Assembly (NCBI RefSeq): GCF_009914755.1
Contig: NC_060926.1
DNA length: 64,000 nt
Reading direction: 5' to 3' (one strand)
From: the human T2T-CHM13v2.0 reference genome, Homo sapiens
The notes under the pieces were generated by a model. The model was not told where the DNA came from. It made no database searches and saw nothing but the letters and a program-made list of their open reading frames with translations. The position numbers and the translations under genes are program-made. Position 1 is the first letter of the stretch. Each line of letters opens with the position of its first letter. This document shows, piece by piece, positions 3,341 to 47,299 of this stretch.

Positions 3341-6187
3341 GGGATATCACCACCGATCTCACAGAAATACAAACTACCATCAGAGAATACTACAAACACC
3401 TCTACGCAAATAAACTAGAAAATCTAGAAGAAATGGATAAATTCCTCGACACATACACCCTCCCAAGACTAAACCAGGAAGAAGTTGAATCTCTGAATAG
3501 ACCAATAACAGGCTCTGAAATTGTGGCAATAATCAATAGCTTACCAATCAAAAAGAGTCCAGGACCAGATGGATTCACAGCCGAATTCTACCAGAGGTAC
3601 AAGGAAGAACTGGTACCATTCCTTCTGAAACTATTCCAATCAATAGAAAAACAGGGAATCCTCCCTAACTCATTTCATGAGACCAGCATCATCCTGAGAC
3701 CAAAGCCTGGCAGAGACACAACCAAAAAAGAGAATTTTAGATCAATATCCTTGATGAACATTGATGCAAAAATGTTCAAATAAAATACTCAAAAAAATAC
3801 TGGCAAACCAAATCCAGCAGCACATCAAAAAGCTTATCCACCATGATCAAGTGGGCTTCATCCCTGGATGCAAGGCTGGTTCAATATACACAAATCAATA
3901 AATGGAATGCGGCATAGAAACAGAACCAAAGACAAAAACCACATGATTATCTCAATAGATGCAGAAAAGGCCTTTGACAAAATTCAACAACGCTTCATGC
4001 TAAAAACTCTCAATAAATTAGGTATTGATGGGATGTATCTCAAAATAATAAGAGCTATCTATGACAAACCCACAGCCAATATCATACTGAATGGGTAAAA
4101 ACTGGAAGCATTCCCTTTGAAAACTGGCACAAGACAGGGATGTCCTCTCTCACCACTCCTATTCAACATAGTGTTGGAAGTTCTGGCCAGGGCAATTAGG
4201 CAGGAGAAGGAAATAAAGGGTATTCAATTAGGAAAAGAGGAAGTCAAATTGTCCCTGTTTGCAGATGACATGATTGTATATCTAGAAAACCCCATTGTCT
4301 CAGCCCAAAATCTCCTTAAGCCGATAAGCAACTTCAGCAAAGCCTTAGGATACAAAATCAATGTACAAAAATCACAAGCATTCTTATACACCAAGAACAG
4401 ACAGAGAGCCAAATCATGAGTGAACTCCCATTCACAATTGCTTCAAAGAGAATAAAATACTTAGGAATCCAACTTACAAGGGACGTGAAGGACCTCTTGA
4501 AGGAGAACTACAAATGACTGCTCAAGGAAATAAAAAGGATAGAAACAAATGGAAGAACATTCCATGCTCATGGGTAGGAAGAATCAACATCGTGAAAATG
4601 GCCATACTGCCCAAGGTAATTTATAGATTCAATGCCATCCCCATCAAGCTACCAATGACTTTCTTCACAGAAGTGGAATGGAACCAAAAAAGAGCCCACA
4701 TCACCAAGTCAATCCTAAGCCAAAAGAACAAAGCTGGAGGCATCACGCTACCTGACTTCAAACTATACTACAAGGCTACAGTAACCAAAAAAGCATGGTA
4801 CTGGTACCAAAACAGAGATATAGATCAATGGAACAGAACAGAGCCCTCAGAAATAACTCCGCATATCTACAAATATCTGATCTTTGACAAACCTGAGAAA
4901 AACAAGCAATGGGGAAAGGATTCTCTATTTAATAAATGGTGCTAGGAAAACTGGCTAGCCATATGTAGAAAGCTGAAACTGGATCCCTTCCTTACACCTT
5001 ATACAAAAATTAATTCAAGATGGATTAAACACTTAAACCTTAGACCTAAAACCATAAAAACCCTAGAAGAAAACCTAGGCATTACCATTCAGGACATAGG
5101 CATGGGCAAGGACTTCATGTCCAAAACACCAAAAGCAATGGCAACAAAAGACAAAATTGACAAATGGGATCTAATTAAACTAAAGAGCTTCTGCACAGCA
5201 AAAGAAACTACCATCAGAGTGAACAGGCAACCTACAAAATGGGAGAAAATTTTCACAACCTACTCATCTGACAAAGGGCTAATATCCAGAATCTACAATG
5301 AACTCAAACAAATTTACAAGAAGAAAACAAACAACCCCATCAAAAAGTGGGCGAAGGACATGAACAGACACTTCTCAAAAGAAGACATTAATGCAGCCAA
5401 AAAACACATGAAAAAATGCTCACCATCACTGGCCATCAGAGAAATGCAAATCAAAACCACAATGAGATACCATCTCACACCAGTTAGAATGGCAATCATT
5501 AAAAAGTCAGGAAACAACAGGTGCTGGAGAGGATGTGGAGAAATAGGAACACTTTGACACTGTTGGTGGTACTGTAAACTAGTTCAACCATTTTGGAAGT
5601 CAGTGTGGCGATTCCTCAGGGATCTAGAACTAGAAATACCATTTGACCCAGCCATCCCATTACTGGGTATATACCCAAAGGACTATAAATCATGCTGCTA
5701 TAAAGACACATGCACACGTATGTTTATTGCAGCACTATTCACAATAGCAAAGACTTGGAACCAACCCAAATGTCCAACAATGATAGACTGGATTAAGAAA
5801 ATGTGGCACATATACACCATGGAATGCTATGCAGCCATAAAAAATGATGAGTTCATGACCTTTGTAGGGACATGGATAAAATTGGAAATCATCATTCTTA
5901 GTAAACTATCGCAAGAACAAAAAACCAAACACCGCATATTCTCATTCATAGGTGGGAATTGAACAATGAGAACACATGGACACAGGAAGGGGAACATCAC
6001 ACTCTGGGGACTGTTGTGGGGTGGGGGGAAGGGGGAGGTATAGCATTAGGAGATATACCTAATGCTAAATGATGAGTTAATGGGTGCAGCACACCAGCAT
6101 GGCACATGTATACATACGTAGCTAACCTGCACATTGTGCACATGTACCCTAAAACTTAAAGTATAATAATAATAAAATTTAAAAAAA
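3341..6187 (+). mobile_element. 5'-truncated L1PA (L1PA3/4-like), copy 1; disrupted ORF2 RT and C-domain, 3'UTR, poly(A)
   Basis: ORF2 fragments ([29 protein letters not shown]), G-rich 3'UTR tract, AATAAA and A-tail at about 6170-6187. Several frameshifts and stops, and a ~21-bp deletion near 4677. Confidence 0.97.
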
Positions 6188-6600
6188 GAATATTTCAAAG
6201 ATTTTTTTTTTCTAAAAATGAGTTTGGGATGGAAATATTTTTTAATCAAAATTTTAAAATAATTTCTTTTTAAAAATACTCTTGATGTTTCTAAACTTCA
6301 TCTGGAAGAATAAGTGGGTAAAAGAATATAAAAGGAAACTTTGTAACAAGAAAAGGATAAGAAACTTGCTTTACCACATATTAAAATACATTATAAAACA
6401 ACCATTAAAACTGTAGTTCTAGCCAAGAATCTATAAATAGATTAATGTTTTAAAATAGAAATAATTAAATTCTAGCATGTTTAATAGGGGAATTTGGCAT
6501 ATACTAAAAAATCACTGGACATCAAAGAAAAACAACATAGATAATTGCATAAATGGCAATAAAAATTGACTTACATTTGTAAAAAGATCTTATTTATAGC
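6188..6600 (+). mobile_element. Continuation of the old L1M into which copy 1 inserted
   Basis: CTAAACTTCATCTGGAAGAATAAG...TTACCACATATTAAAATACATTATAAAAC is degenerate L1 ORF2, collinear with the sequence left of 3034. Confidence 0.55.
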
Positions 6601-46400: not shown

Positions 46401-47299
46401 TAGAAGAAAACCTAGGCATTACCATTGAGGACATAGGCATAGGGAAGGACTTCATGTCCAAAACACCAAAAGCAATGGCAACAAAAGCCAAAAGTGACAA
46501 ATGGGATCTAATTAAACTAAAGAGCTTCTGCACAGCAAAAGAAACTACCATCAGAGTGAACAGGCAACCTACAAAATGGGAGAAAATTTTCACAACCTAC
46601 TCATCTGACAACGTGCTAATATCCAGAATCTACAATGAACTCAAACAAATTTACAGGAAAAAAACAAACAACCCCATCAAAAAGTGAGCGAAGGATATGA
46701 ACAGACACTTCTCAAAAGAAGACATTTATGCAGCCAATAAACACATGAAAAAATGCTCATCATCACTGGCCATCAGAGAAATGCAAATCAAAACCACAAT
46801 GAGATACCATCTCACACCAGTTAGAATGGCGATCATTAAAATGTCAGGAAACAACAGGTGCTGGAGAGGATGTAGAGAAATAGGAACACTTTGACACTGT
46901 TGGTGGGACTGTAAACTAGTTCAACCATTGTGGAAGTCAGTGTGGCGATTCCTCAGGGATCTAGAACTAGAAATACCATTTGACCCAGCCATCCCATTAC
47001 TGGGTATATACCCAAAGGACTATAAATCATGCTGCTATAAAGACACATGCACACGTATGTTTATTGCGGCACTATTCACAATAGCAAAGACTTGGAACCA
47101 ATCCAAATGTCCAACAATGATAGACTGGATTAAGAAAATGTGGCACATATACACCATGGAATACTATGCAGCCATAAAAAATGATGAGTTCATGTCCTTT
47201 GTAGGGACATGGATGAAATTGGAAATCATCATTCTCAGTAAACTATCGCAAGAACAAAAAACCAAACACCGCATATTCTCACTCATAGGTGGGAATTGA
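43473..47299 (+). pseudogene. L1 ORF2 (EN/RT/C), inactivated
   Basis: ATG at 43473, 1-bp deletion near 43613, long open stretch to TGA at 46685-46687, second TGA at 46892-46894. Confidence 0.93.

What the first reader, a model, noticed from the sequence alone, without database searches (positions are those of the whole stretch)
5551..46900. Same lethal nonsense mutation in all four neighbouring, independently inserted L1s
Seen: copies 1-4 all read GGAACACTTTGACACTGTTGG, with TGA at 5555, 19695, 36044 and 46892. The older L1PA7-like element here keeps TTTTACAC (about 8015). Established: the L1 consensus encodes [18 protein letters not shown], and this CCHC motif is required for retrotransposition, so a cis-acting source carrying this stop should be dead. 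The copies have different TSDs, flanks and subfamily diagnostics. The T>G change is not CpG decay. Inference: the variant spread after insertion by non-allelic gene conversion among clustered co-oriented L1s, meaning local concerted evolution that propagates an inactivating allele.
Basis: partly seen in the sequence, partly recalled or inferred. Interest (0 to 1): 0.82.

Follow-up and report, generated by a model that had tools for sequence, protein, structure and literature searches.

The report
Shared stop codon in clustered L1s
Neighbouring, independently inserted L1 retrotransposon copies of different ages carry the same rare stop-codon variant, which is almost confined to a few chromosomal zones genome-wide, so it probably spread between resident copies after they inserted.

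Summary
Four L1PA copies in the window, and a fifth running off its end, carry an in-frame TTA>TGA stop in the ORF2 cysteine-rich motif. W2-W5 have their own target-site duplications.

Genome-wide the variant is rare: 315 copies against 18,041 with TTA. It is strongly zoned. Of the first 100 listed carriers, 39 have another carrier within 100 kb, against 4 and 8 for two control variants.

In 264 kb around the window, 8 of 9 plus-strand L1PA copies carry it. None of 4 minus-strand copies does.

Carriers do not form a clade. They sit on several mainstream backgrounds, including an L1PA3-type copy with the 5'UTR deletion and older types. This argues against one dead lineage.

Two further rare variants (4761C, 5289C) are shared by the same local plus-strand copies. 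An adjacent related L1 pair differs at the site and shows patchy allele replacement.

Best reading (about 0.45): directional, very short-tract non-allelic gene conversion within chromosomal neighbourhoods. Against it, there is no general homogenisation, the spread reaches megabase scale, and a bias is required. Co-orientation matters only locally.

The parts
3340..6198 (+). W1: 5'-truncated L1PA copy (about 2.86 kb) that carries the stop
   Evidence: Self-BLAST of the window, 93.4-94.5% identity to the other copies. It projects onto W3 positions 3306-6169. Its target-site duplication is not clear.
5555..5557 (+). TGA stop in the ORF2 frame of W1 (TTA in most L1PA copies)
7337..8125 (.). Older L1 3' fragment with a 5' inversion: 7337-7861 on the - strand and 7861-8125 on the +. 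It keeps TTA at 8009-8024.
   Evidence: Identity to the young copies is 83-87%.
14146..20323 (+). W2: full-length L1PA copy that carries the stop, with its own target-site duplication (CTCAGGGGTA...)
18919..18935 (+). Rare local variant 4761C in W2. The same k-mer occurs in W3 at 35268-35284 and in W4 at 46112-46128.
19446..19463 (+). Rare local variant 5289C in W2. The same k-mer occurs in W3 at 35795-35812.
19695..19697 (+). TGA stop in W2
30516..36684 (+). W3: full-length L1PA copy that carries the stop, used as the coordinate reference. Its target-site duplication is AAAGAATTTTAC...
36044..36046 (+). TGA stop in W3
41491..47524 (+). W4: L1PA3-type copy that carries the stop. It has young-type ORF2 alleles and lacks 128 nt of the 5'UTR (deletion point near 42268). 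Its target-site duplication is AAAAGAAATAGACAAAGATG.
   Evidence: The 129-bp L1PA3 deletion is described in bioRxiv 10.1101/429613 (passages seen).
46892..46894 (+). TGA stop in W4
61436..64000 (+). W5: 5' part of a fifth full-length co-oriented copy. The copy ends outside the window near 67608, and its stop also lies outside.
   Evidence: Target-site duplication.

Best explanation
The T>G change that creates the stop was mostly not inherited from a dead source element. It was acquired by resident L1 copies after they inserted, by templated transfer from other L1 copies in the same chromosomal neighbourhood. This is non-allelic (ectopic) gene conversion.

The transfer has very short tracts, close to single sites. 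It runs mainly in one direction, from TTA to TGA. As a result the allele accumulates in zones of roughly 0.1 to 10 Mb and crosses L1 subfamilies.

Shown here: the copies are independent insertions; carriers are not a clade; the variant is zoned; the same local copies share other rare variants; a neighbouring related pair shows patchy allele replacement.

Inferred, not shown: that the four window copies themselves were converted; that a bias exists; and what causes it. Candidate causes are repair directed by A-G mismatches in heteroduplex DNA, loss of a nick-prone TTTT/A site, or GC-biased repair.
For: 1. Independent insertions. W2, W3, W4, W5 and copy A each have their own target-site duplication. 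No flank similarity was found.

2. Several backgrounds. W4 and L039 carry the young-type alleles 4482G, 4581C, 4687G, 4989C and 5100C, and W4 also has the 128-nt 5'UTR deletion. W5 and A are older X-type. D is Y-type. B is an intermediate type. The same allele sets occur among the 20 TTA control copies that were fetched, so they are mainstream subfamily markers. With the site masked, carriers scatter over the whole tree.

3. Zoning. Of the first 100 listed carriers, 39 have a neighbour within 100 kb and 82 within 1 Mb. The control variants give 8 and 27 (TTGTAC) and 4 and 32 (TTTCAC). No carrier lies in chr1:1-49 Mb, where the first 100 TTA copies are listed.

4. Local saturation. 8 of 13 L1PA copies in 264 kb are carriers, against 1.7% genome-wide (P = 9e-12).

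5. Other shared rare variants.
- 4761C is in 6 of 8 local + copies, 0 of 4 local - copies and 1 of 25 copies elsewhere.
- 5289C is in 6 of 9, 0 of 3 and 2 of 35.
- Both are interleaved with subfamily alleles that are not shared.
- Each has its own zones elsewhere in the genome.

6. Neighbours share rare alleles more generally. Copy pairs within 1 Mb share 0.263 rare non-CpG alleles per pair, against 0.152 for distant pairs. Only 6 of 2000 permutations reach this.

7. A related pair that differs at the site.
- D (+, TGA) and F (-, TTA) lie head to head, 8 bp apart, and share about 15 alleles that are rare in the other roughly 70 copies.
- D has 7 derived X-type alleles, including 5530G and 5574T only 44 bp apart. 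About 0.9-1.8 were expected.
- F has 10, against about 0.6-1.3 expected. Five of them lie within 40 bp (5950-5990).
Against: - No general homogenisation. Identity among W2-W5 is about 95%, the same as their identity to E, a nearby TTA copy.
- Four-gamete incompatibility in the local set is 0.52. Random non-local sets give 0.41 +/- 0.13, and 451 of 2000 such sets are at least as high. A mosaic of subfamily alleles is therefore not special to this cluster.
- In the chr3:74-75 Mb zone, the 10 carriers share no rare variant other than the stop within 900 bp.
- The nearby variant 5564C is no more frequent with TGA (9 copies) than with TTA (523 copies), about 3% in both.
- In chr3:83.7-88.6 Mb, 5550C copies occur with both 5530 alleles (3 TGA, 5 TTA). 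With other TGA carriers there that lack 5550C, this indicates all four allele combinations, although the two sites are only 20 bp apart. Tracts would have to be under 20 bp, or there were many separate events.
- D and F have had only about 20-25% of their diagnostic sites replaced. Neutral exchange at that rate cannot bring one site to 8 of 9 copies, so a bias must be assumed.
- T>C at the same base is not clustered, so general GC-biased conversion alone does not explain the pattern.
- For Alu, elevated conversion is reported mainly between copies less than 10 kb apart (PMC6598467, parts 1-2 read). The scale here is far larger.
- D and F have no common target-site duplication. Treating them as products of one insertion event is an inference.
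Confidence: 0.45

Rival explanations
1. The stop was inherited at insertion. One or more ORF2-dead source elements carrying the stop were copied using proteins from other L1s, or kept some activity of their own. Their progeny landed preferentially near each other or near the source ('local hopping'). Older residents such as D picked up the allele secondarily.
For: - The carriers have normal poly(A) tails and target-site duplications.
- L035 (chr2:205.47 Mb) and L047/L048 (chr2:222.63 Mb) share four further rare alleles (4844C, 5010T, 5080G, 5435T) besides the stop, which looks like a true sub-lineage.
- L073/L074 and L077/L078 are also close relatives.
- 81 of the first 100 listed carriers have the younger 5574T allele.
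- Every rare variant tested that has 150-530 copies shows its own zones, as source-specific lineages would.
- The overall 1.7% share is of the order recalled for trans-mobilisation. That figure comes from memory, not from a call.
Against: - Carriers are not a clade and span Y-type, intermediate, old X-type and young L1PA3-type backgrounds.
- A lineage cannot acquire the mainstream young alleles, or the 5'UTR deletion, in parallel.
- As recalled, known L1 biology shows no preference for inserting near the source. This was not searched in depth.
- With 315 copies spread at random, 8 in 200 kb is impossible without a strong, undescribed local preference.
- The local variants 4761C, 5289C and the stop are not in complete linkage.
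Confidence: 0.2
2. The site is a recurrent mutation hotspot. The T before A in CTTTT/ACAC mutates to G at a very high rate, but only in certain regions and, locally, on one strand. Possible causes are nicking at this L1-endonuclease-like TTTT/A site or a replication-linked A:T>C:G process.
For: - Only a single site is shared in the chr3:74-75 Mb zone.
- Both 5530 alleles occur with 5550C only 20 bp away, and the data indicate all four combinations.
- The stop occurs on every background.
- In the unbiased 264-kb stretch, the three local variants together are found in 18 of 24 site-by-copy cells on + strand copies and 0 of 9 on - strand copies (P = 1.3e-4).
- All five variants found to cluster are A:T>C:G changes (5530, 4761, 5289, 5550, 5564). 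This class makes up 26 of 253 rare variants in my sample.
- Three of the five share the context T[T>G]AC.
Against: - Different variants have mostly different zones. A regional mutator would hit all its hot sites in the same zones.
- Of 9 TTAC-type sites in the 1.44 kb studied, only 5530 and 4761 show T>G in my sample. The other 7 show 0 copies, although 5550 does show it in other genome copies.
- Outside the zones the variant is nearly absent. All 12 carriers on chr1 fall in three areas.
- In the same + strand copies, 5530 is T>G on the + strand while 4761 and 5289 are T>G on the - strand. No single strand bias fits.
- No sequence elsewhere in the L1 could template the change.
- Private substitutions in the local copies are only mildly richer in A:T>C:G: 12 of 77, against 18 of 169 in the controls.
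Confidence: 0.12
3. The pattern is an assembly or polishing artefact. Reads from one L1 were used to correct its neighbours in T2T-CHM13.
For: No call supports this. Only one assembly could be examined.
Against: - Each copy keeps many private differences within tens of bases of the stop, and the copies differ by about 5% overall.
- The zones extend to megabases and include short, truncated copies.
- Mis-polishing would transfer blocks of variants, not a single base.
Confidence: 0.02
4. The copies arose by segmental or tandem duplication of a single L1 insertion.
For: Five copies with the same orientation lie within 68 kb.
Against: The spacers between copies show no similarity. The target-site duplications differ. 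The copies belong to different subfamily types.
Confidence: 0.01

Closest known systems
Non-allelic (ectopic) gene conversion between dispersed transposable-element copies. Examples are Alu mosaics and replacement, Y-linked LTRs, and cDNA-mediated conversion of Ty/Tf2, as reviewed in PMC6598467 (parts 1-2 read).
   Same: Sequence is transferred by templating between independently inserted paralogous copies. Subfamily alleles end up in mosaics. The effect depends on proximity. Short multi-marker patches are seen in D and F.
   Different: - The scale is hundreds of kb to Mb, not the under-10 kb cited for Alu.
- A single base reaches near-fixation in a local set without any general homogenisation.
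- The transfer appears directional.
- The allele that spreads is a stop codon in ORF2.
GC-biased gene conversion and the drive against recombination-hotspot motifs (both recalled; no paper was read for them)
   Same: Both are directional processes that raise the frequency of one allele without any benefit to the carrier. The changes seen here all run from A:T to G:C.
   Different: T>C at the same base is not clustered. No hotspot motif was identified. The spread here is between non-allelic copies.
Non-autonomous L1 lineages copied in trans, with ORF2 defective or half-L1-like (recalled)
   Same: The copies are ORF2-dead yet have normal target-site duplications and poly(A) tails. A few small carrier sub-lineages do exist (L035, L047, L048).
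   Different: Carriers are not a clade and are not dispersed. They lie on several mainstream subfamily backgrounds.
Concerted evolution of tandem arrays and segmental duplications
   Same: Derived variants are shared among neighbouring repeats.
   Different: The flanks are unique, the insertions are independent, and divergence between copies is not reduced.

Membership tests
Non-allelic gene conversion between dispersed repeats | The copies arose independently and are not duplicates of one locus | tested here: met
   The target-site duplications differ and the flanks show no homology.
Non-allelic gene conversion between dispersed repeats | A shared derived variant that conflicts with the phylogeny or subfamily of the copies | tested here: met
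   Carriers lie on Y-type, intermediate, old X-type and young L1PA3-type backgrounds. They scatter across the tree built with the site masked.
Non-allelic gene conversion between dispersed repeats | A tract of two or more adjacent markers transferred together from a plausible nearby donor | tested here: inconclusive
   Met in the neighbouring pair: F has 5 markers within 5950-5990, and D has 5530 plus 5574. Not seen around the stop in the window copies, nor in the chr3:74-75 Mb zone. 5564C shows no association with the stop.
Non-allelic gene conversion between dispersed repeats | Lower divergence between the interacting copies | tested here: not met
   The window copies are about 95% identical to each other and about 95% identical to E. 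The only signal is a 1.7-fold excess of shared rare alleles within 1 Mb.
Non-allelic gene conversion between dispersed repeats | An orthologous locus in another species that keeps the state from before conversion | not testable with these tools
   No other primate or human assembly was available.
Trans-mobilised ORF2-dead L1 lineage | Carriers form a clade and share other linked variants | tested here: not met
   Only small sub-groups share further variants.
Trans-mobilised ORF2-dead L1 lineage | Copies are spread over the genome like other L1s of the same age | tested here: not met
   39 of 100 carriers have a neighbour within 100 kb, against 4-8 of 100 for the controls.
Site-specific mutation hotspot | The variant is frequent wherever the motif occurs | tested here: not met
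   The genome-wide share is 1.7%, with almost no carriers outside the zones. Seven other TTAC-type sites show no T>G in my sample.
Segmental duplication | Homology extends beyond the repeat into its flanks | tested here: not met

The most novel reading that the evidence does not exclude
Interspersed L1 copies within one chromosomal neighbourhood, from tens of kb to several Mb and perhaps matching a 3D compartment, behave as an exchanging population. Directional transfer of nearly single nucleotides drives particular A:T>C:G alleles to high local frequency. It acts across subfamilies and orientations without homogenising the rest of the sequence. The result is regional 'dialects' of L1 sequence, one of which is an ORF2 stop codon.

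A possible cause is strand-biased repair of A-G mismatches in transient heteroduplexes. Candidate activities are a MUTYH-type glycosylase or the mismatch-nicking activity of the L1 endonuclease reported in PMC12809410 (abstract and passages seen).
Probability: 0.3. Interest if true: 0.85.

Novelty: new variant of a known kind. Interest (0 to 1): 0.62.

Why it matters
L1 subfamily assignment, dating and source-tracing all assume that a copy changes after insertion only by its own private mutations. If single alleles pass between resident copies over hundreds of kilobases, and in a preferred direction, three things follow:
- Diagnostic sites can mislead.
- Inactivating or regulatory changes can spread through a region without any retrotransposition.
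- Interspersed repeats would record long-range ectopic contacts in the germline.

The pattern is cheap to test genome-wide and in the new ape and pangenome assemblies.

Tried and rejected
**Hypotheses tested and dropped**
- Segmental duplication: rejected.
- A template for TTTGACAC elsewhere in the L1, by quasi-palindrome or direct-repeat switching: none found.
- A generic TTAC>TGAC hotspot: 7 of 9 such sites show none in my sample.
- A regional A:T>C:G mutator: private substitutions are only mildly enriched, and different variants have different zones.
- Mosaic subfamily alleles as proof of local conversion: dropped, because random non-local sets are as incompatible.
- 5014C as a local variant: reclassified as an allele of an older subfamily.
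- The stop-plus-5564C haplotype as a co-transferred tract: rejected, because 5564C has the same frequency with TTA.
- D's 5530+5574 pair as clean proof: weakened, because D also carries scattered X-type alleles and D/F have no common target-site duplication.

**Searches and fetches that failed**
- Two genome pattern searches were wasted on a wrong gap length.
No second zone could be read contiguously, so the TTA copies in other zones were not seen.

**Literature**
- The listings of searches showed no paper on regional sharing of L1 variants.
- The first bioRxiv version of the germline mutational-process paper held no LINE component. The journal version was not seen.
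Full report
**Observation**

The older element at 8009-8024 keeps TTA.

In the frame of the motif, all four copies read [15 protein letters not shown]. The stop lies between the second cysteine and the histidine of the ORF2 cysteine-rich motif. With the numbering CWWDC1143-1147 from PMC2951350 (passages seen), it replaces Leu1141. That paper also states that C-domain mutations impair retrotransposition and reduce the amount of ORF2p in L1 particles.

**Anatomy of the copies**

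A self-comparison of the window defines five co-oriented L1PA copies:
- W1, 3340-6198, 5'-truncated
- W2, 14146-20323
- W3, 30516-36684
- W4, 41491-47524
- W5, from 61436 to beyond the window end

They are 93.4-95.3% identical to each other. The spacers between them share nothing apart from Alu-sized repeats and one 227-bp repeat pair. W2, W3, W4, W5 and an upstream copy A each have their own target-site duplication next to a poly(A) tail. They are therefore separate insertion events, not duplications.

W4 lacks 128 nt of the 5'UTR. This fits the 129-bp deletion that marks L1PA3 and later families (bioRxiv 10.1101/429613, passages seen).

**Genome-wide counts**

In the assembly that holds the window, the TGA 16-mer occurs 315 times (161 forward, 154 reverse). 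The TTA 16-mer occurs 18,041 times. The carrier share is 1.7%.

Carriers are not dispersed. Of the first 100 listed, 39 have another carrier within 100 kb and 82 within 1 Mb. Two single-base control variants of the same 16-mer give 8 and 27 (TTGTAC, 231 copies) and 4 and 32 (TTTCAC, 292 copies).

All 12 carriers on chr1 lie in three areas. None lies in chr1:1-49 Mb, where the first 100 TTA copies are listed. On chr2, 26 of 34 carriers lie in 205.4-213.9 Mb.

**The neighbourhood of the window**

I read 264 kb contiguously, chr2:209.100-209.364 Mb.

Thirteen L1PA copies cover the site:
- Eight of the 9 + strand copies carry the stop: A, D, W1-W5 and B. Copy C does not.
- None of the 4 - strand copies (E, F, G, H) carries it.

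The chance of 8 or more carriers among 13 at the genome-wide frequency is 9e-12.

The strand contrast is significant locally (Fisher P = 0.007) but does not hold in general. Minus-strand carriers occur 0.3-0.5 Mb away (L040, L041). Outside this zone, adjacent carrier pairs closer than 100 kb are 7 same-strand and 11 opposite-strand.

**Not one lineage**

I fetched 28 carriers from chr1 and chr2 and 20 TTA controls, and projected them onto W3.

Carriers fall on several backgrounds:
- a young type with 4347C, 4482G, 4581C, 4687G, 4989C and 5100C (W4, L039 and others)
- older X-type (W5, A)
- Y-type (D, L040)
- intermediate types (B)
- still older copies (L003, L005)

The TTA controls show the same allele sets, so these are mainstream subfamily markers. 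A tree built with the focal site masked places carriers along the whole ladder, interleaved with TTA copies.

Small true sub-lineages do exist. L035, L047 and L048 share four further rare alleles.

**Other variants shared locally**

Within 1.44 kb, two further rare alleles are concentrated in the local + strand copies:
- 4761C is in 6 of 8 local + copies, 0 of 4 local - copies and 1 of 25 copies elsewhere.
- 5289C is in 6 of 9, 0 of 3 and 2 of 35.

In the unbiased 264-kb stretch, the three variants together fill 18 of 24 site-by-copy cells on the + strand and 0 of 9 on the - strand (P = 1.3e-4). These cells are not independent.

The three variants are not in complete linkage:
- W1 and D have only the stop.
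- W4 lacks 5289C.
- Copies at 209.379, 209.648 and 209.712 Mb have 4761C or 5289C together with TTA.

They are also interleaved with subfamily alleles that the copies do not share.

Genome-wide, 4761C has 243 copies and 5289C has 151. Both are zoned, but mostly in regions other than the stop's zones. With this zone excluded, 30 of 93 and 24 of 92 of the listed copies have a neighbour within 100 kb. Two more variants near the stop behave the same way: 5564C (523 copies with TTA) and 5550C (194 copies).

**Evidence for templated exchange**

With obvious sister pairs and the focal site excluded, copy pairs within 1 Mb share 0.263 rare non-CpG alleles per pair. Distant pairs share 0.152. Only 6 of 2000 permutations reach the observed value.

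Just upstream of the window, D (+, TGA) and F (-, TTA) lie head to head, 8 bp apart.
- They share about 15 alleles that are rare in the other roughly 70 copies.
- I polarised their differences with G as outgroup.
- D has 7 derived alleles that match the X-type neighbours, including 5530G and 5574T, 44 bp apart. About 0.9-1.8 were expected.
- F has 10, against about 0.6-1.3 expected. Five of them lie within 5950-5990.
- The Poisson probabilities are 0.002 for D and 1e-6 for F.

This is the pattern expected from short patches copied from nearby L1s. It also shows two close relatives that differ at the focal site.

**What does not fit simple gene conversion**

- The window copies are no more alike than any of them is to E.
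- Four-gamete incompatibility is not higher locally: 0.52, against 0.41 +/- 0.13 for random non-local sets, with 451 of 2000 sets at least as high.
- In chr3:74-75 Mb, ten carriers on mixed backgrounds share nothing rare besides the stop.
- 5564C is equally frequent with TGA and with TTA.
- In chr3:83.7-88.6 Mb, 5550C copies occur with both 5530 alleles (3 TGA, 5 TTA). With other TGA carriers there that lack 5550C, this indicates all four allele combinations, although the sites are only 20 bp apart.
- D and F had about 20-25% of their diagnostic sites replaced. At that rate, neutral exchange cannot carry one base to 8 of 9 copies.
- T>C at the same base is not zoned.

A directional, nearly single-base process is therefore needed.

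All five variants found to be zoned are A:T>C:G changes. This class makes up 26 of 253 rare variants in my sample, which gives P = 1e-5, although the selection was post hoc.

A generic TTAC hotspot is excluded, because 7 of 9 such sites show no change in my sample. So is an internal template.

One lead for the bias comes from a 2025 paper (PMC12809410, abstract and passages seen). It reports that the L1 endonuclease nicks the A- or T-bearing strand next to A-G and T-G mismatches. In a heteroduplex this would favour the G:C allele. This link is my inference and was not tested.

**Verdict**

Three amendments apply:
- The spread is not a general homogenisation.
- It is not tied to co-orientation outside this zone.
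- It is one instance of a genome-wide pattern, in which rare L1 alleles form zones of 0.1 to about 10 Mb.

The rivals are:
- a locally re-inserting dead lineage (0.2)
- a regional site-specific hotspot (0.12)
- an assembly artefact (0.02)
- segmental duplication (0.01)

**Limits**

- Only one assembly was examined.
- Only the first 100 places of each pattern search were visible.
- Only one zone was read contiguously.
- No orthologous loci were available.
- The listings of searches showed no paper describing regional sharing of L1 variants. The library lacks most subscription journals.

Noticed in passing
window 7337-8125: The older L1 is a 5'-inverted element. Its 3' part lies on the - strand (7337-7861), and the sequence just upstream in L1 coordinates lies on the + strand (7861-8125). 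This is the structure expected from twin priming.
   Followed up: partly
window about 42268 (W4): W4 lacks 128 nt of the 5'UTR present in W2 and W3 (W3 element positions 779-906). This matches the 129-bp deletion described for L1PA3 and later families, so W4 is younger than its neighbours.
   Followed up: partly
L022/L023, chr2:209237960-209246146 (4-12 kb upstream of the window): Two related Y-type L1s, F (-) and D (+), lie head to head 8 bp apart and overlap in L1 coordinates 3582-6148. No common target-site duplication was found. They may be a double insertion at one break.
   Followed up: partly
L047/L048 (chr2:222633749+ and 222635395-); L077/L078 (chr3:74631525+ and 74636933-): These are tail-to-tail inverted pairs of carrier L1s, 1.6 and 5.4 kb apart. 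Each pair shares several private alleles. They may be inverted duplications or paired insertions.
   Followed up: partly
L026/L027, chr2:209343410-209343943 and 209344522-209345588: Two 3' L1 fragments of the same intermediate type lie 0.6 kb apart on the + strand. One reads TGA (B). The other reads TTA and carries 5289C (C).
   Followed up: no
window 49424-49649 and 50738-50964: A 227-bp direct repeat, 90.7% identical and 1.3 kb apart. Its first copy overlaps the annotated lncRNA exon at 49418-49521.
   Followed up: no
genome: chr4:96.87-102.08 Mb; chr4:173.51-173.86 Mb: Other rare L1 variants form zones of their own. Thirteen copies of 5550C lie within 5.2 Mb. Six copies of the control variant TTGTAC lie within 350 kb.
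   Followed up: no
L061/L062 (chr1:15.98 and 16.45 Mb): Two TTA control copies share about 15 private alleles. They are probably part of a segmental duplication, which is a reminder that some clusters in the pattern lists are duplications.
   Followed up: no
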